Positions 13,567-48,963 of a DNA stretch of 64,000 bases are shown one piece after another. The stretch's first letter is position 1. Every line of letters starts with the position of its first letter. Both the position numbers and the translations under genes were made by a program. The notes under the pieces were generated by a model. It ran no database searches and was not told the DNA's origin. It was given only the letters and a program-made list of their open reading frames with translations. This DNA is from a virus. Where the stretch lies: IMG/VR virus record IMGVR_UViG_3300033144_003384, positions 1-64,000 of that record. One strand, given 5' to 3'.

Positions 13567-13980
13567 TCAGGCAGCCTTTGCTTCCGTTCGGGCCAAAGCC
13601 TCCTTCAGCGCTTGTAGCTGGACGTCGAACGCCGTTCCCTCGGTGATCAGATTCTCCAATGTCATCACGGAGATGTTGGTGTACTCGTCGCCCTCGAATA
13701 GGTCGCCCCAGATGTTCGATGCGTCCACAGTCTCCATGTCGCCTGCTTCTGCGTAGTCGCCAACGATCACAACCCGATCGCCGTGCCAGCGTCCGGCAAC
13801 GTCGTTCTGTGCGAAGTCGCCACCGCCTCTCGGCTCCGGGCAGACCATCAGCATGAACATTCCCGCTGGCGTGGTGTACGAGTTTGCGGCCTGTTCCCAA
13901 GCCTTCGCACCCGAACCCATGTCCCACGGGGAAATGAACTCCTTCTTGTCTAAATTGACCACTGCGTGGTATTGTCCCAT
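13567..13980 (-). CDS. Conserved phage hypothetical protein
   Basis: MGQYHAVVNLDKKEFI...GRWHGDRVVIVGDY; own promoter and RBS GAAAGGAGG. Confidence 0.7.
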   Translation of the reverse strand: MGQYHAVVNLDKKEFISPWDMGSGAKAWEQAANSYTTPAGMFMLMVCPEPRGGGDFAQNDVAGRWHGDRVVIVGDYAEAGDMETVDASNIWGDLFEGDEYTNISVMTLENLITEGTAFDVQLQALKEALARTEAKAA

Positions 13981-14026
13981 TTGTGGCCTCCTTTCTCTTA
14001 CAGTATACAGTATCGCCTAGCGTTTG

Positions 14027-20651: not shown

Positions 20652-20731
20652 TGGTGGAGCTGGCGGGAATCGAACCCGCTTCCAGACATTTGCACTTCGG
20701 CATTTCAGTCTGTCGAAACCATTACAGCCCC
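20652..20731 (-). ncRNA. ssrA: Mini-tmRNA: tRNA-like domain only, 80 nt, no tag ORF
   Basis: GGGGCTG TAATGGTTTCGA CAGAC [20 nt] GTCTG GAA GCGGG TTCGATT CCCGC CAGCTCC ACCA; G3-U70 pair, tmRNA-type D-loop, P2a, T-arm and encoded CCA. Confidence 0.85.
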
Positions 20732-39981: not shown

Positions 39982-40311
39982 ATGCCAGATGTCTTACATC
40001 TCTTCCCCGTCCCCGAAGAAGAAGCCTCCCCGGTGGACACCATCTTCGACCATTGGGTTGAAATCACGTGGCCCAAACGTGGCCCGCGTCCCCGCCTCAC
40101 CGACCAACGCCGTCGCGCCATCAAGCGTGCCTTGAAGGACTACAAGCCTCAAGACTGTCTCGACGCAATCGACGGCATCATGCTGTCCGACTTCCACACG
40201 GGCCACAACAGCAGCGGAAAGAGGTACCTTGACATCGGGCTGATTTTGAGAGACGCAGAACACATCGAACGATTTGCCATGATGAAACACGAAGAAGGGG
40301 ACCTTTGGTGA
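39982..40311 (+). CDS. Replication-associated helical protein (initiator C-terminal-like)
   Basis: LTDQRRRAIKRALK...AIDG...S.FH.G.N; first gene of replication operon. Confidence 0.55.
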   Translation: MPDVLHLFPVPEEEASPVDTIFDHWVEITWPKRGPRPRLTDQRRRAIKRALKDYKPQDCLDAIDGIMLSDFHTGHNSSGKRYLDIGLILRDAEHIERFAMMKHEEGDLW

Positions 40312-40736
40312 CGAAGGAAGAGCTACAAGCGATCGTCGACCGCGTATCAATCAACTGGAATGTCTACGAGATGCCAACACGACGCAAAGGTGCTTACAAG
40401 GTTTGGTGGCATTTTCTTAGCGACCTCGACTTTGACCTTGTGTCAAAGTATGTTGACGAACGCGCCCTGGCGGGCGACTACCCACCACGACCCGGAGACG
40501 TACGCGGCGAATTGATTTATCGCAAGACAGGTATCGCGCCGCCAACGAAACAAGCGTGGGTTGAGTTTCAAAAAGCTCGCAGCGACCTTGAGTCCGGGGT
40601 TGATCCCGGCAACCTCGACCCTATCGTAGCCAAAACGATGAAGGAGATGGGGCGGAACAATCAGAGGGACGTGTTTTTTCGCCTGTACGACGACAACCGC
40701 GGGGAATATTTTGCCAATGAATTGGACAGCCGATGA
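40308..40736 (+). CDS. Putative helicase loader/inhibitor (G39P-like)
   Basis: W...L.DLDF.LV...V......YPP.PGD...QAW; located before primase-helicase. Confidence 0.5.
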   Translation: MTKEELQAIVDRVSINWNVYEMPTRRKGAYKVWWHFLSDLDFDLVSKYVDERALAGDYPPRPGDVRGELIYRKTGIAPPTKQAWVEFQKARSDLESGVDPGNLDPIVAKTMKEMGRNNQRDVFFRLYDDNRGEYFANELDSR

Positions 40737-42415
40737 AAGGCATTCCTCCGTGGGCTGACGGAGTTTTCGATCGCTTCAAGGGTGTTAAGACTTCCGGCAA
40801 CGGCTGGTCGGTCATATGTCCTGCTCACCCAGATTCACACCCGTCTATGTCGATCTCTATTGGTACCGATGGTGACAAGCTGATTTTCAATTGTCATCGT
40901 GGCTGCGCTGTTGACGATATTGTGAAGTCTGCCGGACTTGAAATGAAGGACTTGTGGAAGCCGGGCTCGTCTCGCGACCGGAAGAAAAAAGAGTGGATAG
41001 CCAATTACGACTATACCGACGCTGAGGGCAATTTGATCTTTCAGGTAACCCGCTGGATCGAGGGCGACGGTCGTAAAACGTTCACGCAACGCAAGCCGAC
41101 GAAGGCTGGTGGCTGGGAATATTCGACTACGGGTTTGAAGAAGCCGATTTACAGGTATCCGCAGATCAAGTCCGCTATTGAGCAAGGTCTCCCGATCTAT
41201 GTTGCCGAGGGTGAGAAGGACGTTGCAACGTTGGTGACTGCTGGGGTACAGGCAACTTGCAACCCAGGCGGTGCCGGGTCGTGGCAAGCAAATCACACGA
41301 AAGCTTTAGCTAAGGCGTCTCAGGTGTTTATTGTGCCTGACCGTGATGCTGTAGGCATGTCTCACGCAGCTCACATCAAGGGCGAATTAGAAGACCTAGA
41401 TGTTGAGGTTCACGTTGTTGGTCCCCCTGAGGGTAACAAGGATGTGACGTGGTTCTTTGAGAACGCTGGCGGTTCGCTGGCTGGTCTTGTGAGCATTGAG
41501 CTGTCGGCAGAGAATCAGGACCCGTTTGTTGACATCTTGACAGAGCTTCGCAGCTTGTCTAAACAGAACATGGCGTTTGAGAAGAAGCTGCACCGTGCCC
41601 GCTCAATGCTTGATATTGCAGAGTTCGACCCTACGGATTATGGGCGGCTGGTGAAGTGGGAAGATTTCCTAAAAGAGGGAGTCGATGATTACGATTGGGT
41701 AATTCCGGGGTTGTTGGAACGGCAGGAACGCGTTATTGTGGTTGCTGCGGAGGGTGTCGGCAAGACGATGCTTGCGCGGCAAGTTGCACTAATGTCGTCT
41801 GCTGGCATTTCCCCGTTTCGTAAGGATTCGATGCCGAAGGTTGCGACGCTGTTTGTTGATTTGGAAAACCCTGAGCGGATCATTAAGCGTACGTCTGCGA
41901 AGATTTTGGAGCGCATTCGTTGGGTCAAGCCTGACGTTGGTCCGCTGGATGCTCACCTTCTGGTGAAGCCAGATGGCTTGGATTTGCTAAAGTCTGAGGA
42001 TCGTGTCCTGTTGGAGCGCATTGTTGCCCAAACTGAGCCCGACATTATCTTCCTCGGTCCGCTGTATAAGGCAATGGTTGATCCGGGTGGCCGTACTGCT
42101 GAGGCTGTGACGACTGAGGTTGCAAAGTTCTTCGACTATATCAGGGATCAGTACAACTGTGCTTGGTGGTTAGAGCATCACGCTCCTTTGGGTTCGTCGG
42201 ATTCTGGTCGTCCGCTTCGTCCGTTTGGTTCGTCGGTGTGGTCTCGTTGGTCGGAGTTTGGTATCGCGCTGGCTCCCGATCCGATGATTCACCATAGGTT
42301 TGAAGTGAAGCACTATCGTGGCCAACGTGATGAGCGAGAGTGGCCTGCTGCGTTGGTGCGTGGCGATATTTGGCCGTTTGAGGCTGAATGGGTTGACAGT
42401 CACGGCACGATTTAG
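40733..42415 (+). CDS. DNA primase-helicase (Zn finger, TOPRIM, AAA_25/RepA-like)
   Basis: CPAH.D..PS...CHRGC; AEGEKD; PDRDAVG; AAEGVGKT; LEHH; RPFGSS. Confidence 0.9.
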   Translation: MKGIPPWADGVFDRFKGVKTSGNGWSVICPAHPDSHPSMSISIGTDGDKLIFNCHRGCAVDDIVKSAGLEMKDLWKPGSSRDRKKKEWIANYDYTDAEGNLIFQVTRWIEGDGRKTFTQRKPTKAGGWEYSTTGLKKPIYRYPQIKSAIEQGLPIYVAEGEKDVATLVTAGVQATCNPGGAGSWQANHTKALAKASQVFIVPDRDAVGMSHAAHIKGELEDLDVEVHVVGPPEGNKDVTWFFENAGGSLAGLVSIELSAENQDPFVDILTELRSLSKQNMAFEKKLHRARSMLDIAEFDPTDYGRLVKWEDFLKEGVDDYDWVIPGLLERQERVIVVAAEGVGKTMLARQVALMSSAGISPFRKDSMPKVATLFVDLENPERIIKRTSAKILERIRWVKPDVGPLDAHLLVKPDGLDLLKSEDRVLLERIVAQTEPDIIFLGPLYKAMVDPGGRTAEAVTTEVAKFFDYIRDQYNCAWWLEHHAPLGSSDSGRPLRPFGSSVWSRWSEFGIALAPDPMIHHRFEVKHYRGQRDEREWPAALVRGDIWPFEAEWVDSHGTI

Positions 42416-42427
42416 TATCCTTGCAGC

Positions 42428-42524
42428 AGGAGAGGCTCCTGACAAAGCCCAAGGCCCCGGATGCGTGTCCCCCCCGCAGGCATTCTGCGGCCGCCCCTTC
42501 TATCCTGTCAGGGGTCTCTTCTTC
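42428..42524 (+). ncRNA. Candidate ~97-nt sRNA: multibranch fold with C-rich linkers
   Basis: TTGACA(42393)-17-TATCCT(42416); closing stem AGGAGAGGCTCCTGACA/TGTCAGGGGTCTCTTCT with G-U pairs on the plus strand. Confidence 0.65.
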
Positions 42525-42594
42525 TGTCTTGACTTGTCTTGCCGAGTTGCTATAATGAACTCCTGTAAGGCTCTAGACGATTAGGAGTTAGCCG

Positions 42595-43005
42595 ATGAAT
42601 TTGAGCCCAATTACGCTCGTAGGTAATGCAACTGCCGACCCCGAGGTCACTACGACCCCAGCCGGACACAAGAAGGTCACCTTCTCCGTCGCTGTTGAGC
42701 ACCGTTACAAGCAAGGGGAAGAGTGGGTATCGAAGCCTTCCTTCTTCAATGTTGTGACGTGGCGTCAGACTGCCGACCGTGTCGAAATGCTGCTTGAGAA
42801 AGGTATGGGCGTCATCGTGACGGGCCGCCTTGATCAAAGATCGTGGGAGAATGACGAGGGCCAGAAGAGGTCATTCGTTGAGGTTGTTGCAGACAACGTT
42901 GCGATCAACGTGTGGACGGTTGATTCCGTTACGCGTCGTCAGCGTCAGTCTGCTCCTGCTGGTGCTTCCGCTCCCAGTGGTGCGCCCGCGGATTCGCCCT
43001 GGTAA
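42595..43005 (+). CDS. ssb: Single-stranded DNA-binding protein
   Basis: ITLVGNATADPE, FFNVVTWR, KGM.VIV.GRL.QRSWE, acidic DSPW tail. Confidence 0.95.
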   Translation: MNLSPITLVGNATADPEVTTTPAGHKKVTFSVAVEHRYKQGEEWVSKPSFFNVVTWRQTADRVEMLLEKGMGVIVTGRLDQRSWENDEGQKRSFVEVVADNVAINVWTVDSVTRRQRQSAPAGASAPSGAPADSPW

Positions 43006-43137
43006 CGAGTCAGCTCGAATAGGGAATAAGGGGCCCCGTGAGGGCCCCTTCTCTTTGCCCTCAGGGCACACTTGACTTTTCTGTAAATTTGGGCTACAAT
43101 ACGTAGCAAGGACGCCACAGAAAGTAGGGAGAGACAC

Positions 43138-43857
43138 ATGAGAAGGTATTTGCTATTAGGGGCAGCGATCTTGGCGATAGTCGTATCGACTTTGCCCGTG
43201 TTGGCTGCGACCACGGAAGAATGCCGGGGATACAGCAACCACAGTGGGGAAATTCCCGGTCGTTATGACGTTGCTTACTTCTTTGAAAATGGTCACAACA
43301 ACAATGAGTGGATCGGCCCTATCGTCGTTCCGGATGGTGGGCTGAGCTATCCGCCACCTACCGGACGTAGGTCGTGGGACACAGTCAAAAAGTGCTACGT
43401 CACGGTGACAACCACGACCACCACCGAACCGCCAACTACGACGACGACGGTGTCGGACACGACCACCACCGAACCGCCAACCACTACGACGACAGAACCA
43501 CCGACAACCACAACAACAGTGCCGAACACAACAACTACAACGGTGCCGGACACAACAACAACAACAACAACAGTGCCGAACACAACTACGACGACGGAAT
43601 CGCCAACGACCACAACAGTTCCCGATACGACCACAACGACAGACCCGCCAGCGACTACCACAACGATTCTTCCCGAGAAATGTGATGACGGTCTTGTTGT
43701 GAACGCCAACGGGGAGTGCGAACTCCCGGCAACAGGTTCGCCAGACATGAGCCTTTGGGCAGGGGTCGGCATGGTTGCCCTTTTGGTTGGAATATTGCTT
43801 CTAGCCTTGGGACGCAACAGGAGACTCAGCGAACAAGAACGGGTTGACATTACGTAA
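43138..43857 (+). CDS. Thr-rich sortase-anchored (LPXTG) surface protein
   Basis: Signal peptide (VLA-AT), Thr/Pro stalk, LPATG, hydrophobic helix, RNRR tail. Confidence 0.85.
   Translation: MRRYLLLGAAILAIVVSTLPVLAATTEECRGYSNHSGEIPGRYDVAYFFENGHNNNEWIGPIVVPDGGLSYPPPTGRRSWDTVKKCYVTVTTTTTTEPPTTTTTVSDTTTTEPPTTTTTEPPTTTTTVPNTTTTTVPDTTTTTTTVPNTTTTTESPTTTTVPDTTTTTDPPATTTTILPEKCDDGLVVNANGECELPATGSPDMSLWAGVGMVALLVGILLLALGRNRRLSEQERVDIT
43400..43665 (+). repeat. Coding Thr-rich tandem repeats (TTTTEPP / TTTTVP[DN])
   Basis: ACN codon runs within the LPXTG gene. Confidence 0.9.
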
Positions 43858-43878
43858 CTTGCTTGCTATGCTAGAGAC

Positions 43879-43968
43879 AAGCACCTAACGGTGTGGGTGA
43901 GTCCCAGTGACTGATCCTCCTTTCTCGGAAGCGGAGGGGCCTTAGCGGGCCCCTTCTTCCGTTCCGGG
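43879..43968 (+). ncRNA. Candidate ~90-nt sRNA with exposed anti-SD GATCCTCCTTTCT
   Basis: TTGACA(43844)-17-TATGCT(43867); hairpins GCACC/GGTGT and TGGG/CCA-type, long 3' hairpin; no convincing ORF. Confidence 0.65.
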
Positions 43969-43993
43969 GTATTTACGGCTAGACTGCACGATT

Positions 43994-44953
43994 ATGCAAT
44001 CCTGGCTAACACACGCAGAATCATGGCCTGCCGTAAACGCTCGCGGCGGTGCTATCAATGGAACTCCATTTCAAGAAGGCCCTACTCGCGTTGCCGTAGA
44101 CACTTCGAACGCCGTCTCCGTACGGATAGCCGCACTGTCTTATGGCGAGAGCGGACGAGTACCGCACTTCACACTTGACGCAACCACGGAAACCGTGGCA
44201 CAACATCTCGACATTCAGCTTGCTCCCGTGAGTGTTACTGATTTTCCGGTTGAGCCCCACAGGTTCGGTCACAACATTTGGGTTACTGTCCTTACTCCCG
44301 CAGGGGAAACGCCTACAGCGAAAGAGTCAATGTGGCTGGGTGGCGAAGTCGCGAAAATCGCAGCCGCCGCAGGCTCGCTCACCGAGCTGTATAGTGGCGA
44401 TCCGATGGGTGTCGGCGAATGGTTGCGATTCGAAGGAGTTGCGTTTACTTCCGAAGTTCCACTCACGCATGCAAGCGATACGCGTGTCGACAAGGACATG
44501 TTCCTCCTCGGTCTTTATGGCAGTCCCGTTGCCTCGGGATTTGAGATTTCAGACGAAGACATTTCGCCTACTGTCGCCCAAACTTTGGAAGAAATCGAAA
44601 ACGGTGACGTTACTACTGTTACGTCGATCGAAGAGTTCAGGGCTGCGCTCGATGATGTTGATACGATCGAGACGGAGACGATCATGGTCACCCCGGTAGT
44701 CAACGAACCAACTGCTGTTGCGACAAACGAAGAGACTGTTCTCGGCAAATTCCCTGGTCGCAAAGTCCAAGTTGGGTCCGGCGGCAAAGCGGTTGCCACC
44801 ATGAAAGAAGCATTCGGCTTAGGCAAAGGCAAGTTCGATGAAGAGCTTGAAGATCACGTAAAGATGATTCAGGAACTGGCTGATCTTCACGTGGACGGCG
44901 TGGTAGATTCTGACACCTGGGCAGCAATTGACACACACCTCCTGGAGGAGTAA
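43994..44953 (+). CDS. Degenerate amidase-like protein with C-terminal peptidoglycan-binding domain
   Basis: VPHFTLD...VAQH; C-terminal VK.IQ....L.VDGVV...TWAAI; expected Zn-binding His absent. Confidence 0.6.
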   Translation: MQSWLTHAESWPAVNARGGAINGTPFQEGPTRVAVDTSNAVSVRIAALSYGESGRVPHFTLDATTETVAQHLDIQLAPVSVTDFPVEPHRFGHNIWVTVLTPAGETPTAKESMWLGGEVAKIAAAAGSLTELYSGDPMGVGEWLRFEGVAFTSEVPLTHASDTRVDKDMFLLGLYGSPVASGFEISDEDISPTVAQTLEEIENGDVTTVTSIEEFRAALDDVDTIETETIMVTPVVNEPTAVATNEETVLGKFPGRKVQVGSGGKAVATMKEAFGLGKGKFDEELEDHVKMIQELADLHVDGVVDSDTWAAIDTHLLEE

Positions 44954-45107
44954 TCGTGGAAAAGGAATACGACTATTTGAACCCTCCCCCCGAGGGCATT
45001 CCTGCTGATCCTCTGCCTGCCTGGAAGCAGGAGGGAGAAGCAGATGACACGGAGAAATGGGACTGGTCGGACACGCCGCCTAACCCAACAGAAGGGAGGG
45101 CCGAGTA

Positions 45108-46112
45108 ATGGGTTACGAACACTCTTCACTTCTTTGGCTTCCCGACGCAATGCGTGCCGAGGGTCTGAACGTAATTGAACTCGATGGCTGGAAAGAGAAC
45201 GAGCAGGGCTACTACTGGTCACGCCTTCGCGAGAGTGACGGCAGGCAGGTTCACGACGGCTACATCGGCGATCCTCGTGGCTGGGTTTGGCACCACACGG
45301 CCACAAACGGATACACCCCATTTGTGAAAAACGGCCTGGGCCAGACGAAGGCAAATATTTTCATGGGCATGTGGCAGGGTGGATCGAACTACAGGCTGTA
45401 CAACAGTGATGCCGGGCAGCCGACCGCTGTCATTGTCTCGGCTGGCCCCTCTGATTACAGCAACGGATCGGGATATAAGCCAGTGCTTATAGATCACGTT
45501 GAAGCCGACATAAGGTTCTACGGTCCCCAGAAGAATTCAGACTCGTATCCGAAGTTCTACGGAAACCGCTTTATGGGTGGCACCGAAATCGTTCACCCCG
45601 GTAACGGAAGTCCCGTAAACCAAGGCGTGTTCCGTATGGCCTACATTACGGCGTCGCTTCTTTCAGAACATTACGAGTGGTCGATTTATCGAAACATCGG
45701 CCACCTGGACTGGAGTCGCAGAAAAATTGATCCAAGATTTGAACAGGGTTCGCCCTACACGATGGGCCTATTCCAAGACGCGGCAGAAGGCTTCACAGCC
45801 GGAACAGTTACACCGCCACCAACAGAACCAATTCCACCCCCGACAGGAGACTACGAGATGCATACAGTCGTGAGAGGCGACGGGTACAACAGCAAGGGCA
45901 CGGCAGAGAAGCGCCCTACGGTGAAGGCAGCACAGCTGATGCTTGCCCACTGGGGCTTCGCTGACAAGAGGTCCGAAGACGGTACTTGCGCAGCAGATGG
46001 CATTTTCGGTTCTGGTACGGAGTCCGCAGCCAAGAACTTCCAGGTCGCCAAGGGCCTCGTTGTTGACGGCAAGGTCGGTCCGGTTACCTGGGCACAACTA
46101 GAAAGCTGGTAA
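45108..46112 (+). CDS. Endolysin: N-acetylmuramoyl-L-alanine amidase with PG-binding domain
   Basis: VWHHTA, GTE, IGHLDWSRRKIDP; DGIFG.GT......FQ..KGLVVDGKVGPVTW. Confidence 0.9.
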   Translation: MGYEHSSLLWLPDAMRAEGLNVIELDGWKENEQGYYWSRLRESDGRQVHDGYIGDPRGWVWHHTATNGYTPFVKNGLGQTKANIFMGMWQGGSNYRLYNSDAGQPTAVIVSAGPSDYSNGSGYKPVLIDHVEADIRFYGPQKNSDSYPKFYGNRFMGGTEIVHPGNGSPVNQGVFRMAYITASLLSEHYEWSIYRNIGHLDWSRRKIDPRFEQGSPYTMGLFQDAAEGFTAGTVTPPPTEPIPPPTGDYEMHTVVRGDGYNSKGTAEKRPTVKAAQLMLAHWGFADKRSEDGTCAADGIFGSGTESAAKNFQVAKGLVVDGKVGPVTWAQLESW

Positions 46113-46119
46113 TCCCGAC

Positions 46120-46452
46120 ATGTGGGGAACTGGGCTCAGGCTGGTAGTTGCCTTTGCGTGGCTGACGGCTGGCTTTGTTTATTGGCGCGCCTATCGGTTC
46201 GAAACCACCACGGTATTCCGTCCCATGCGAATATATGCAGTTGGGGTGTCCTTTGCGTGGGGAATCTGGGAAGGGTACATCGGGATATATGGCGGGCTCT
46301 TGGGGCACGACCTTCCCGAAGCGGTGAAAAATGGGTCGATTACTCTCGGCTTACTGGTCTCTACGGTGGCATACTTCTTGTTGGCTGGGTACATTACCCA
46401 CAGGGTCGTACAGGCTTACTTCCCTCCCGACATGGAGGACGATGATAGCTAG
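46120..46452 (+). CDS. Three-TM membrane protein in lysis cassette
   Basis: Three hydrophobic segments; follows endolysin. Confidence 0.65.
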   Translation: MWGTGLRLVVAFAWLTAGFVYWRAYRFETTTVFRPMRIYAVGVSFAWGIWEGYIGIYGGLLGHDLPEAVKNGSITLGLLVSTVAYFLLAGYITHRVVQAYFPPDMEDDDS

Positions 46453-46892
46453 TGTTGGAACAATTTGGCGATCAGCTAATAGCCGTAGTTGTCGCACTCG
46501 TCGGTCTTGGCGGTGCGGCTTTTGTCGGACGTTCTACCAATCGCAAACTCGATCGTGAGGGTGCCGACGCAATCTCGCGTGCCGCGGTGCAGCTTGTCGA
46601 TCCACTAGAGCAACGCCTCGACAGGTCGGACAGCGAGAACGAGGGGCTTCGCATGAGGATTACCGCCCTTGAGGCAGAGGCCAGAGACCTCGAAACATTC
46701 CGATTTGAGAATCAGCACTTGCGTGAACGCGTGAAGTATTTGGAGATGCAAGTTGATCTCTTGAGGGAGCGCGCCGACTATCGTGAGGAGTTGGAAAGGG
46801 CAATGGCTTCCGCCAAGGAAGAGATTGTTCTGCTCAGGGATCAGATTAGGTCTTTGGGCCATGACCCGGTAACCGAACAAGGGACTGATTGA
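46452..46892 (+). CDS. Membrane-anchored coiled-coil lysis-cassette protein
   Basis: N-terminal TM followed by long heptad region. Confidence 0.7.
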   Translation: MLEQFGDQLIAVVVALVGLGGAAFVGRSTNRKLDREGADAISRAAVQLVDPLEQRLDRSDSENEGLRMRITALEAEARDLETFRFENQHLRERVKYLEMQVDLLRERADYREELERAMASAKEEIVLLRDQIRSLGHDPVTEQGTD

Positions 46893-47143
46893 TGTCAGAC
46901 TTCGTAATTGCTCAGATTCGGACATATGTTCCGATGGGCGTTGGGATGCTTTTGTCTTGGTTGGTCGCCCAAGGAATGCTCGATGAGGCAACTTCTATGG
47001 AAGCTGTCGCAGCGATTTCCGCTGGCTTGACTGCCGTTCTCGGTGGTCTCTACTACTTTGTTGTCAGGATGGCAGCGAAGAGGTGGCCAGGCGTGGGTGT
47101 CCTTCTTGGATATAACAAAGCTCCTGCATACACAGAAGAGTAA
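46892..47143 (+). CDS. Holin
   Basis: IRTYVP..VG..L.WL...YY.VVR...KRWP..GVLLG...P.Y, typical actinophage holin. Confidence 0.85.
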   Translation: MSDFVIAQIRTYVPMGVGMLLSWLVAQGMLDEATSMEAVAAISAGLTAVLGGLYYFVVRMAAKRWPGVGVLLGYNKAPAYTEE

Positions 47144-48850
47144 CGCTAGGAGGTGGCGGATTTGTTGGGGCTTCGGCCTCAGCTTTTCCGTCTCCTTTTC
47201 CGTTTCGGGATAGCTGGCTTGAGGTCTTCGTGACGGTAGAACCTGCTGCGTCCGTCGTTGTCTAGTAATTGGTATCCAGTTAGCGCACCGTCTTTTTCGA
47301 TGAAGCGCATGATGGTCATGATGCGATTGCTTCCGTCTTTTGCTTTGACCTTGTCCCCCGGTACGAACGTGTTCATGAACACCACCCTACCATAGTGTCA
47401 AGGAATTGTCAAGCCGTTCGGTTCTTCGGGAACATCAGCGGGTTCGTAATTGAGGACGAATCCGGCACGCTCCATCGTCTCCATAGCTTCGGCCAGTTCT
47501 TCCTCTGTTGGGGGGCTCCCGAGTTCCAGAAGCTCGTCCATGGTTTTCAGTACGTCATCGACCTTGTCGCTGACTTCTTCAAGTAAGCCTTTCACATCTG
47601 CTGGCGTTGTGGTGATCCTCAGCCAGTTCAAGATTGGGCTCCTTGCGAACTTCAGGATTATGGCGAGGGCAGCAAGCAGGGCGGCTACGGTGACGAGCCC
47701 GCTTGATAGCGAGTTTAGGAGTTCCATTTGCGCAAGCCTTTCCAGTGGGTTATCAAGCTTCTTGGCCGAATTCGGTGAGGGCTCCGCCGAGCCCATGGGC
47801 TGAATCAAGGTGCAGGATGTACAGGTCTGCGACAATCTCCCACATAGCCGCTACGTCTTCCCTGACTTCGTGTTTCGATACGATTTCTCCGCATCCGATG
47901 TATTCCTCGATGGAGCCGTTTGTTCTTTCGATTGCTATGCGTTCGCCTGCTTCGCATCGCAAGGTAACCGTGCTGCCTGCCGTGACCGGAAAGGAACTTT
48001 CGTACTCCTTGGCCATTGTGTCGCGGATGTAATTGATCTCTTCTCTGGTCAAACTCATCGTATTAACAGGCTAGCCGCAGGGATTGCAACCGAGGCTTAC
48101 TTGCCTGCGAGTTTCCTAACTTGAGTTCCGCCAAGCACAACCATCGCTGATTGAACTTTCGGTCGCCCCCCAACCATGCGCGCTTCGATGGTTACACTTT
48201 CTTGAGTAATCTCAAGGGCGGATGCGAGACGAGCCCTTACATCGGACGTATAGGACATGAGAGTAGCCTCTTCGTTGATTTCCACGGTGTTGTCCCTGTC
48301 ATAGGAACATAGGCCACAGCCAATCTTCTTGCCTGGAGCTTTTCTCTTACGCAATTCCAGATGACCGCACTCCATCCAGTGCTCCCACCAGACATCGGGA
48401 TAGCCGCCAGTTCTGACGATATCGACGACTCTACGCTTTGGCGCGTGTCTTCGTGTCAAGATATTCCTCCGCGCTTTCGATGGCGTCGTAGAGGTTTTGT
48501 GACCATGGCGACATCAAGGTTTCCGACCAAGGCGTTCCGATCCAATCCGGGTATTCGACCGGGTTGCCAGAAAGGATTTGCTTTGTCGTAGGGGGAGGCG
48601 CTGCGACAACCATCTCTTGGTAGAGGGCGAGAGCTTTTTTCTGAAGTTCGTGCTGTTCGTCGACCCATTCGAAATCTCGGTCATGCGGTTCGCCTTCGAC
48701 CTTCAACATGGCACGCAACCCTGGCGAACCTTGTGGGGGAAGCCAACTTGGGTCGTCTTGATATGCCAGGAGAGCAATCATTAGTTCATCTGGCAGATGT
48801 CGGTCGGTCATAGTTTCTTTCCGGCTGAGTTCATGCTATTACCATAGCTC

Positions 48851-48963
48851 GGGTGAGGCCGCTTCGGAAGGGTTTCCCTTCCTCTTCCCTGTCCAGCCGG
48901 GGTGGCCAGAGCGAAGGGTCTGGGGTGTAGCGTTTCCTCCTTTCCGCTGCATCCCAGGCTCTT
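48851..48963 (+). ncRNA. Candidate two-hairpin sRNA (6C/cuckoo-like) with anti-SD loops
   Basis: Hairpin 1 48857-48907 loop TTTCCCTTCCTCTT; hairpin 2 48914-48963, 19 bp, loop TTTCCTCCTTTC; -10 TACCAT at 48840. Confidence 0.75.

What the first reader, a model, noticed from the sequence alone, without database searches (positions are those of the whole stretch)
43844..43968. Promoter-driven sRNA carrying a near copy of the 16S rRNA 3' tail
Seen: TTGACA-17-TATGCT with an extended TG starts a ~90-nt unit without a convincing ORF. It has two small hairpins, then GTGACTGATCCTCCTTTCT, then a long hairpin. The downstream gene has its own -10 (TAGACT). Established: actinobacterial 16S rRNA ends GATCACCTCCTTTCT. 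Seen: CCTCCTTTCTC is an 11-nt complement of the RBS at 13987-13997. Inference: a second anti-SD RNA.
Basis: partly seen in the sequence, partly recalled or inferred. Interest (0 to 1): 0.7.

Follow-up and report, generated by a model that had tools for sequence, protein, structure and literature searches.

The report
Phage small RNA with ribosome-tail-like stretch
An uncultured phage has a strong promoter that appears to make only a short, folded, non-coding RNA carrying ten letters identical to the ribosome's mRNA-docking tail, but only half of that stretch is predicted open, no relative carries it and no transcript has been seen.

Summary
The window is part of an 83.7-kb virus record. At 43844-43872 sits TTGACA-17-TGcTATGCT. 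It belongs to a promoter class far above chance in this phage: 26 sites against 1.75 expected, and 12 with TG against 0.1. Of 38 promoter-like sites, only this one and 42393 have no ORF behind them.

The predicted RNA (about 43879-43972) folds into two small hairpins, a short open linker and a -30 kcal/mol hairpin. CCUCCUUUCU matches the widely conserved 16S tail. Only UCCUU(U) is predicted open.

Two related metagenome loci share only the hairpin and the downstream gene's leaderless -10. They lack the surface-protein gene, the promoter, the small hairpins and the C/U stretch. I found no RNA data, no Rfam family and no target signal above shuffled controls.

My best reading (0.33) is a 3'-UTR-type small RNA with a C/U-rich seed that pairs with Shine-Dalgarno sites. 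Nearly as likely, it is a by-product whose C/U stretch is a terminator tail.

The scan has noted similar "anti-SD mimic" phage RNAs on other DNA (unchecked AI notes). None shares sequence with this one.

The parts
43138..43857 (+). Upstream gene: secreted Thr-rich protein ending in LPATG, a hydrophobic helix and RNRR (sortase-substrate look). It has its own promoter at 43072-43100 and is absent from relatives, so it looks like an inserted 'moron'. Its last codons hold the -35 of the unit.
   Evidence: Translation. No Pfam or PHROG hit. Promoter. Absent between ssb and the lysis gene in L004 and L005.
43844..43872 (+). Sigma-70-type promoter: TTGACA (43844-49), 17 nt, TG (43864-65), TATGCT (43867-72). 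It overlaps the stop codon TAA at 43855-57.
   Evidence: The class is enriched: 26 sites against 1.75 expected, and 12 with TG against 0.1.
43879..43972 (+). Predicted non-coding transcript of about 91-97 nt. The start is placed 7 nt after the -10, as in the phage's 10 leaderless genes. The end is inferred from the hairpin.
   Evidence: spacing rule; no ORF; -45.6 kcal/mol, z -3.3, 1 of 200 shuffles as good. Both ends are inferred, not mapped.
43881..43894 (+). Hairpin 1 (5 bp, loop UAAC).
43895..43917 (+). Hairpin 2 (4+4 bp with a 1x1 internal loop). Its 3' arm GACUGAUCC holds the GAUCC of the 16S-like stretch.
43913..43925 (+). GAUCCUCCUUUCU: 10 nt (43916-25) identical to the CCUCCUUUCU of the conserved 16S 3' tail. 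Only 43918-43923 (UCCUUU) is predicted single-stranded.
   Evidence: 16S tails from PMC6288834.
43923..43975 (+). Long GC-rich hairpin (43923-43969) plus the tail UAUUUA. Probable shared terminator of the surface-protein mRNA and of the short RNA. Its GC top is positionally conserved in relatives.
   Evidence: -29.8 kcal/mol, z -2.9; alignment A2. The U-tract is weak and the site was not listed by the terminator scan.
43980..43996 (+). The downstream gene's own -10 (TAGACT), 8 nt, then ATG 43994, with no SD. This is the leaderless start of the PG-binding protein that opens the lysis cassette.
   Evidence: start MQSWL shared with P0002; the -10 aligns with L004 and L005.

Best explanation
A real host-type (sigma-70-like) promoter lies in the last codons of an inserted surface-protein gene. 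It starts a non-coding RNA of roughly 91-97 nt (about 43879-43972) that stops at the same hairpin that ends the surface-protein mRNA. This makes it a '3'-UTR-type' small RNA with an ORF-overlapping promoter.

Its body is two small 5' hairpins, a 5-6 nt open linker UCCUU(U), and a strong 3' hairpin. The linker is the middle of CCUCCUUUCU, the exact complement of the AGAAAGGAGG-type ribosome-binding sites used by this phage's SD-led genes.

The most likely action is base-pairing. The open UCCUU nucleates on the purine-rich SD of an mRNA. The weak lower stem of hairpin 2 then opens, the duplex extends to CCUCC, and the ribosome is kept off. Targets could be phage genes (13980 and 29446 have perfect 10-11 nt matches) or host genes.

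Shown: the promoter class, the absence of an ORF, the fold, the strand preference and the complementarity.

Inferred: that the RNA is made, where it ends, that it pairs, and any effect on translation.
For: - Promoter. TTGACA-17-TGnTATGCT belongs to a class with 26 sites against 1.75 +/- 1.3 in 200 dinucleotide shuffles, and 12 with TG against 0.1.
- What the promoters drive. 29 of the 38 promoter-like sites sit directly on a leaderless ATG (10) or an SD-led ORF (19). Only 42393 and 43844 have no candidate ORF.
- Fold. -45.6 kcal/mol, z -3.3 on the + strand against -37.3, z -2.4 on the - strand. The 5' domain is significant on its own.
- Open linker. UCCUU is unpaired with P about 0.8.
- The 10-mer appears in 0.11% of 20,000 shuffles of the unit.
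- It is an exact complement of the RBS at 13987-13997 and at 29451-60.
- A second + strand element (48915-48962) shows UUUCCUCCUUUC in a fully open loop.
- The downstream gene has its own conserved leaderless -10, so the unit is not needed as its leader.
Against: - No transcript data: 0 of the 4 listed runs is RNA.
- No conservation. The only two informative relatives (L004, L005) lack everything to the left of the hairpin. No other relative was found.
- Half of the 16S-like stretch is predicted paired.
- Duplex energies to 152 crude start regions are no better than for shuffled seeds: 49 at -14 kcal/mol or below against 63.5 +/- 9.5, and 92 of 100 shuffles reach the observed count.
- Non-RBS copies of the 8-mer in the contig (3) match expectation (2.5).
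- This phage's terminator tails are C/U mixtures (UUCUCUUU, CUUCUUCC, UCUUCUUCUGUCUU). The stretch could simply be the tail of hairpin 2.
- The 3' hairpin has a weak U-tract (UAUUUA), so termination is not assured.
Confidence: 0.33

Rival explanations
1. By-product or insulation. The promoter fires, or is a relic that arrived with the inserted gene. The hairpin exists to stop transcription from the two strong promoters (43072, 43844) before the lysis genes. The short RNA has no trans function. The C/U stretch is the pyrimidine-rich tail of hairpin 2 (a weak first terminator in tandem with the strong one), and its identity to the 16S tail is a compositional coincidence.
For: - The terminator tails of this phage are C/U mixtures.
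- Contig-wide counts of the 8-mer outside RBSs equal expectation.
- There is no target signal above shuffles.
- Relatives do without the left part.
- The GC hairpin is positionally conserved as the barrier before the lysis gene.
Against: - A perfect -35, a 17-nt spacer and a TG-extended -10 are not expected by chance (0.1 such sites expected per contig), so the promoter looks selected.
- The 5' hairpins fold better than 196 of 200 shuffles.
- The exact 10-mer is rare even in shuffles of the unit's own composition (0.11%).
- Hairpin 2 is a weak stem for a terminator.
Confidence: 0.3
2. Long 5' leader or attenuator of the lysis cassette. The promoter at 43844 is the (or a) promoter of 43994-47143, and the hairpin is a regulated barrier. 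The layout recalls lambda PR' - 6S RNA - tR', which stands before the lysis genes and is read through only after antitermination. The two 5' hairpins would be a cis-acting antitermination RNA.
For: - The layout: a strong promoter, about 90 nt, a hairpin, then the lysis cassette (PG-binding protein, endolysin phrog_880, holin-like genes).
- The hairpin has a weak U-tract.
- The downstream -10 (TAGACT) lacks a TG extension and a -35, so it is weaker than in L004 and L005.
Against: - The ATG at 43994 has no SD, and its homologues in L004 and L005 are set up as leaderless (7 nt after an extended -10). A 115-nt leader would therefore serve translation poorly.
- No alternative fold removes the GC top of the hairpin. 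The three-hairpin fold dominates the 162 structures found within 3 kcal/mol of the minimum.
- No antiterminator gene was identified (not searched systematically).
- Relatives lack the promoter.
Confidence: 0.13
3. Control in cis, icaR-like. The C/U stretch acts within the 3' UTR of the surface-protein mRNA (made from 43072) and pairs with that mRNA's own SD region (AGAAAGUAGGGAGAG), limiting its translation or triggering cleavage.
For: - The stretch lies in the 3' UTR of that mRNA.
- A duplex with its start region of -16.8 kcal/mol is possible (6 bp, one mismatch, 4 bp).
- There is a precedent in S. aureus icaR (PMC3868564, abstract read).
Against: - The match to its own SD is imperfect, and weaker than to other start regions. 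It is not among the 15 best of 152.
- This reading does not explain the separate promoter at 43844.
Confidence: 0.08
4. The act of transcription matters, not the RNA. Two short promoter-to-hairpin units (42393 and 43844) flank ssb next to the primase-helicase. They could activate or prime a replication origin.
For: The two ORF-less promoter units lie 1.4 kb apart, directly after the primase-helicase and one gene after ssb.
Against: No origin features were sought or seen, and relatives lack the 43844 unit. This is an inference from position only.
Confidence: 0.06
5. The minus strand reading: AGAAAGGAGG is the ribosome-binding site of a small minus-strand peptide.
For: AGAAAGGAGG is this phage's best SD, used at 13980 and 29446.
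Against: - No ATG, GTG or TTG lies 3-14 nt downstream.
- The only readings by eye are a 13-codon CTG frame or a 14-codon ATC frame.
- All the surrounding called genes (the crude list, 40305-47143) are on the + strand, and no minus-strand promoter was found in 42000-46000 at 10 of 12 or better.
- The minus strand folds worse.
Confidence: 0.02

Closest known systems
6C / B11 small RNA of Actinobacteria (PMC6486639, abstract read); RoxS/RsaE-type C-rich-seed sRNAs of Firmicutes (recalled, not checked here)
   Same: A short structured RNA with a C-rich single-stranded patch that can pair with G-rich or SD regions of mRNAs without a chaperone. It is promoter-driven and ends in a terminator hairpin.
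   Different: - No Rfam match.
- The patch here is a linker between hairpins, not apical loops, and reads UCCUU rather than a run of C.
- It is phage-borne and an orphan, with no conservation and no transcript seen.
sRNAs from mRNA 3' ends with an ORF-internal promoter, such as MicX (PMC9438474, passage read); DapZ and MicL are recalled
   Same: The promoter lies inside or overlaps the end of the upstream coding sequence. The RNA corresponds to the 3' UTR and shares the mRNA's terminator.
   Different: Those are Hfq-dependent sRNAs of Gammaproteobacteria with mapped ends and proven targets. Here everything beyond the DNA layout is inferred.
icaR mRNA 3'-UTR anti-SD motif, Staphylococcus aureus (PMC3868564, abstract read)
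   Same: A C/U-rich anti-SD motif in a 3' UTR of more than 100 nt that could pair with an SD region.
   Different: In icaR the target is the same mRNA's SD and the pairing is proven. Here the match to the parental SD is imperfect and a separate promoter exists.
Lambda PR' - 6S RNA - tR' unit before the lysis genes (recalled from general knowledge, no call)
   Same: A constitutive-looking promoter makes a short terminated RNA directly upstream of the lysis cassette.
   Different: No Q-like factor or binding element was identified. The downstream gene keeps its own leaderless promoter, and relatives lack the unit.
3' tail of 16S rRNA, GAUCACCUCCUUUCU (PMC6288834, Table 1 passages read)
   Same: CCUCCUUUCU is identical. 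GAUC is present 2 nt closer, and a hairpin stands directly 5' of the stretch, as helix 45 does in 16S (helix 45 is recalled).
   Different: The stretch is not at a free 3' end. The two letters AC are missing, CC is paired in hairpin 2 and CU in the terminator base.

Membership tests
6C RNA (Rfam) and any other Rfam family | A match to the covariance model at or near the gathering score | tested here: not met
   Whole window at gathering threshold: only a tmRNA hit elsewhere. 42300-44100 at E up to 10: the only hit on the element is mir-1292, 17.9 bits against a gathering score of 90, E 9.8.
3'-end-derived sRNA with ORF-internal promoter (MicX/DapZ/MicL type) | A promoter inside or overlapping the 3' end of the upstream coding sequence | tested here: met
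   The -35 at 43844-49 lies in the codons GTT GAC ATT before TAA 43855-57. The class is enriched: 12 sites against 0.1 expected. This is a sequence-level test only.
3'-end-derived sRNA with ORF-internal promoter (MicX/DapZ/MicL type) | It shares the Rho-independent terminator of the parental mRNA | tested here: inconclusive
   Only one strong hairpin (43923-43969, -29.8 kcal/mol) lies between the stop codon and the next gene. Its tail UAUUUA is weak, and the scan did not list it as a terminator.
3'-end-derived sRNA with ORF-internal promoter (MicX/DapZ/MicL type) | A stable RNA species is detected and it regulates targets in trans | not testable with these tools
   No RNA run is listed. The laid DNA contigs do not cover 43872-44264.
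Copy of the 16S rRNA 3' tail | The sequence GAUCACCUCCUUUCU, single-stranded | tested here: inconclusive
   13 of 15 letters with one 2-nt gap, 10 of them contiguous. Only 43918-43923 is predicted open. The host 16S is unknown.
Intrinsic (Rho-independent) terminator | A GC-rich hairpin followed at once by a U-tract | tested here: inconclusive
   The hairpin criterion is met. The tail has 4 U in 6, which is below the scan's rule. Similar hairpins stand at the same place in L004 and L005.
icaR-like 3'-UTR/5'-UTR pairing | A 3'-UTR motif complementary to the SD of the same mRNA | tested here: inconclusive
   A duplex of -16.8 kcal/mol with an internal mismatch. It is not among the 15 best of 152 start regions.
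Lambda-type late antitermination unit (PR'-6S-tR') | An antiterminator protein or cis RNA that lets RNA polymerase pass the terminator | not tested
   Only the layout was compared. No search for Q-like genes was run. No alternative fold removes the GC top of the hairpin.

The most novel reading that the evidence does not exclude
The RNA is a molecular decoy of the ribosome's 16S 3' tail. It would be made in bulk from a strong promoter on a replicating phage genome, and its one open stretch is UCCUU. That is the recognition sequence U^CCUU by which the actinobacterial toxin MazF-mt3 cuts the anti-SD off 16S rRNA (PMC5408214, passages). Other toxins, MazF-mt11 and RelE1, also cut there (PMC12274833, abstract; PMC12620021, listing only).

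The RNA would soak up such abortive-infection nucleases, or host factors that bind the tail, and so protect ribosomes. This would be an RNA-mimicry counter-defence in the spirit of the pseudo-ToxI of phage PhiTE (PMC3475682, listing and start of abstract).

A sister reading is bulk masking of SD sites to favour the phage's 10 leaderless messages.
Probability: 0.04. Interest if true: 0.85.

Novelty: new member of a known kind. Interest (0 to 1): 0.38.

Why it matters
If real, this would be a phage-borne regulatory RNA that arrived together with an inserted surface-protein gene. It would use the most generic seed possible, the ribosome's own docking sequence, in a phage whose transcripts split into SD-led and leaderless classes (19 and 10 of 38 promoter-like sites). 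That would give a handle on how such a phage balances the two translation modes, or times its early genes.

The phage holds a second, better-exposed copy of the motif at 48915-48962. It also has a second ORF-less promoter unit at 42393. The three together are worth a single transcript-mapping experiment.

On present evidence the element is an orphan with no expression data, so it matters only as a candidate.

Tried and rejected
- Rfam: no family at gathering threshold or at E up to 10.
- tRNA/tmRNA finder: nothing in the window.
- Relatives by DNA: INPHARED phages with 43138-45108 in distant mode gave no match.
- Relatives by protein in IMG/VR: the PG-binding protein, the endolysin, the primase-helicase (5 pattern hits, none confirmed), alignment A1 (36 pattern hits, none confirmed) and the surface protein (11 pattern hits, none confirmed).
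- Genome contigs with A1: 18 pattern hits, none confirmed.
- Metagenome contigs with A1: 3 loci. L006 holds only the 3' end of the gene and was not informative for the upstream region.
- Pattern 'anti-SD followed by a GGGGCC hairpin' in IMG/VR: 0 hits.
- Host clue from the tmRNA-like 3' end in genome contigs: 0 hits. The host, and so its 16S tail, stay unknown. The record itself has no 16S.
- Paralogues of the element in the contig or in L004-L006 by blastn-short: none beyond 9-15 nt words. The best match is the terminator top in L004.
- RNA evidence: no RNA holder listed. Laying X1 and X2 gave 10 short DNA pieces, 9 of them identical to the window and one matching over only 36 nt with 5 differences; none covers 43872-44264. 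This says nothing on expression.
- Target prediction by duplex energy was no better than for shuffled seeds. The test is crude: gene starts come from a greedy longest-ORF model of 152 ORFs that certainly includes false ones, and the shuffles keep the C/U content.
- The best-matching phage genes (13980, 29446) have no Pfam or PHROG annotation.
- Attenuator idea: alternative folds were examined. None removes the GC top of the hairpin, so I rejected it as the main reading.
- Intergenic enrichment of the 8-mer: the crude gene model labels true RBS sites as 'coding', so I do not rely on that split.
- Supplements of papers are closed and were not asked for. They might hold 16S tail tables for Actinobacteria.
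Full report
**Context**

The window is bases 1-64000 of an 83,756-base virus record that holds no 16S rRNA. GC content is about 52-58%.

Around the finding, all on the + strand, lie:
- a primase-helicase (40733-42415) and ssb (42595-43005);
- an unannotated 239-aa protein (43138-43857) with a signal-peptide-like start, a Thr-rich stalk and LPATG, a hydrophobic helix and RNRR at its end (by eye);
- a PG_binding_1 protein (43994-44953);
- an endolysin (45108-46112, phrog_880) and small holin-like genes.

The element fills the 136-nt gap between the surface-protein gene and the first gene of the lysis cassette.

**Observation**

- TTGACA 43844-49, 17 nt, TG 43864-65 and TATGCT 43867-72. The -35 lies in the last codons of the upstream gene, whose stop is at 43855-57.
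- No + strand ORF of 20 aa or more in 43873-43975.
- Two small hairpins and a long one.
- GATCCTCCTTTCT at 43913-25, unique in the window.
- TAGACT 8 nt before the ATG at 43994.
- An 11-nt identity with 13987-13997. On the other strand that site is the RBS of the ORF starting at 13980.

**Is the promoter real?**

The contig has 38 sites with at least 10 of 12 consensus matches. Fifty block shuffles gave 7.8 +/- 2.4. For the stricter class (perfect TTGACA, 16-18 nt, TAnnnT-like -10), the contig has 26 sites against 1.75 +/- 1.3 in 200 dinucleotide-preserving shuffles. With a TG extension it has 12 against 0.1. The site at 43844 belongs to that last class, so it is very probably a functional promoter.

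**What do these promoters drive?**

Of the 38 sites:
- 10 place an ATG 6-9 nt after the -10 (8 of them exactly 7 nt), which makes the genes leaderless;
- 19 have an SD and a start codon 8-34 nt from the predicted transcription start;
- 5 have an ORF without an SD;
- 4 have no ORF of 40 aa or more within 60 nt.

Of those last four, 27923 has an SD and a 32-aa ORF, and 30358 stands 41 nt before another promoter. That leaves 42393 and 43844 as the only promoter units with nothing to translate. Both overlap the end of the preceding gene, and both run into a strong hairpin just before the next promoter.

**Fold**

From the predicted start (43879, by the 7-nt rule) to 43975, the RNA folds at -45.6 kcal/mol (z -3.3; 1 of 200 shuffles as good). 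The complementary strand gives -37.3 (z -2.4).

- The 5' domain alone: -15.8, z -2.8.
- The 3' hairpin alone: -29.8, z -2.9.
- The three-hairpin fold dominates the 162 structures found within 3 kcal/mol, and it forms in order during transcription.

Unpaired probabilities across the 16S-like stretch are C16 0.00, C17 0.00, U18 0.93, C19 0.88, C20 0.88, U21 0.84, U22 0.97, U23 0.51, C24 0.12 and U25 0.12. Opening CCUCC costs 5.2 kcal/mol and opening the 10-mer costs 9.0, while UCCUU is open with P 0.81. The motif is therefore half exposed, not displayed.

**The 16S likeness and chance**

PMC6288834 lists GAUCACCUCCUUUCU as the mapped or genomic 16S tail in several phyla (passages).

The element has CCUCCUUUCU exactly, with GAUC shifted by a missing AC. 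The phage's own SD-led genes use AGAAAGGAGG-like sites, which fits a host with that tail.

- The 10-mer occurs 3 times in the window against 0.14 expected. Two of the three are RBS complements (13987, 29451).
- The 8-mer AAAGGAGG/CCTCCTTT occurs 8 times in the contig. Five are true RBSs and three are not (23356, 43916, 48936). About 2.5 are expected from composition.
- At contig level, then, the non-RBS copies are not enriched.
- Given the unit itself, the 10-mer turns up in 0.11% of 20,000 shuffles and any of its 8-mers in 2.5%.
- A second non-RBS copy sits in the fully open 12-nt loop of an 18-bp + strand hairpin at 48915-48962. There the + strand again folds better than the - strand (-59.1 against -46.2).

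**Minus strand**

AGAAAGGAGG on the minus strand has no ATG, GTG or TTG 3-14 nt downstream. I reject the peptide reading.

**Relatives**

The downstream protein has 13 homologues at 34-55% identity.

A metagenome scan with the alignment gave three loci, and two of them reach upstream. In both L004 and L005, ssb is followed by a GC hairpin. Then comes TGTTATGCT or TGTTAGGCT, then 7 nt, then the ATG.

In L004 an in-frame ATG inside the -10 makes the true start ambiguous. The L004/L005 conservation of the -10-to-ATG segment favours the leaderless reading.

These loci have no surface-protein gene, no second promoter, no small hairpins and no C/U stretch. The GC top of the hairpin and the -10 (our TAGACT) align across the three phages.

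I infer that the ancestral junction was ssb, terminator, leaderless lysis gene. This phage then gained about 900 nt carrying a promoter, the surface-protein gene, the second promoter, the two hairpins and the C/U stretch. An 11-nt repeat, GGGCCCCTTCT, sits at both terminators.

No other relative was found, so conservation of the new part cannot be tested.

**Targets**

Perfect 10-11 nt complements are the RBSs of two unannotated genes, 13980 and 29446. The endolysin RBS (AGAAGGGAGGG) can pair with 11 contiguous pairs including two G-U (and by eye).

The duplex test over 152 crude start regions gave no excess over shuffled seeds. It is an insensitive test, and it offers no support.

**Reading**

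The DNA says that a strong promoter fires into roughly 90 nt of structured, untranslated sequence closed by the hairpin that also ends the surface-protein mRNA. The next gene starts from its own conserved leaderless -10.

I judge a discrete short RNA likely (about 0.65). What it does is open.

- I commit, at 0.33, to a base-pairing small RNA that nucleates through UCCUU on SD regions.
- A by-product whose C/U stretch is a terminator tail is nearly as likely (0.30). This phage's tails read UUCUCUUU, CUUCUUCC and UCUUCUUCUGUCUU.
- The other readings are a leader or attenuator of the lysis cassette (0.13), control of the parental mRNA in cis (0.08), transcription for replication (0.06), and a minus-strand RBS (0.02).

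**Known things**

In kind, the element resembles C-rich-seed sRNAs such as 6C (PMC6486639, abstract). It also resembles sRNAs from mRNA 3' ends with ORF-internal promoters such as MicX (PMC9438474, passage), and in one reading the icaR 3' UTR (PMC3868564, abstract). It is a member of no Rfam family.

The boldest reading not excluded is a decoy of the 16S tail for toxins that cut the anti-SD. MazF-mt3 recognises U^CCUU (PMC5408214, passages) and MazF-mt11 cuts just before the anti-SD (PMC12274833, abstract). A 5-mer is no evidence, so I put this at 0.04.

**Earlier notes of this scan**

Other readers flagged the same stretch and proposed a 'system' of anti-SD RNAs in this phage. A word search lists 68 AI notes on anti-SD-mimic phage RNAs in at least 66 genomes (8 shown). 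None shares sequence with this element. These notes are leads, not support.

**Limits**

- No transcript data.
- The host is unknown.
- Only two informative relatives.
- The gene starts used in my scripts come from a crude ORF model.
- Paper supplements were closed.

Noticed in passing
window 20652-20731 (-): An 80-nt gene matches both ends of the tmRNA model (71.9 bits, E 5e-26), with only 18 nt where the 312-position messenger part should be. It keeps the acceptor stem with G3:U70, the T-arm and an encoded CCA. It therefore looks like a tRNA-like domain of tmRNA without a tag reading frame. ARAGORN does not call it. Its 32-nt 3' end has no exact match in the genome collection.
   Followed up: partly
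window 42393-42530 (+): The second ORF-less promoter unit. TTGACA-17-TATCCT lies in the last codons of the primase-helicase. A 95-nt hairpin then starts exactly at the predicted transcription start (-47 kcal/mol, z -4.2, 0 of 200 shuffles as good), with an apical C7 loop and a U/C tail. It ends just before the ssb promoter at 42529.
   Followed up: partly
window 48845-48962 (+): In a gap among minus-strand genes, the + strand folds much better (-59.1, z -3.1) than the - strand (-46.2, z -1.5). An 18-bp hairpin (48915-48962) shows UUUCCUCCUUUC in a fully open 12-nt loop. No promoter was checked. A 65-aa minus-strand ORF from my crude model overlaps it and may be spurious.
   Followed up: partly
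whole contig (G000:C1): Uniform promoter set: 26 perfect TTGACA sites, 16-18 nt spacer (17 nt in most), TAnnnT-like -10. Among all 38 promoter-like sites, 10 place an ATG 6-9 nt after the -10 (8 of them exactly 7 nt; leaderless) and 19 use short leaders of 8-34 nt with AAAGGAGG-type SDs.
   Followed up: yes
window 43138-43857 (+): A phage-borne Thr-rich secreted protein with LPATG, a hydrophobic helix and RNRR (sortase-substrate look) and its own promoter. It has no Pfam or PHROG hit and is absent from the two related loci, so it was probably inserted.
   Followed up: partly
window 23356 (+) and 22327 (-): SD-like AAGGAGG words without a start codon that form the rising arm of GC hairpins (GGAGGAGCCTCC..., GGAGGAGCCCCCGTCGGGGG...). 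Several hairpins of this phage thus pair a GGAGG arm with a CCUCC arm.
   Followed up: no
L004 2871-2967; L005 2125-2211: Related metagenome phages have ssb, a GC tetraloop hairpin, TGTTAKGCT, 7 nt and ATG of the PG-binding gene. This is a conserved leaderless start for the first lysis-cassette gene.
   Followed up: yes
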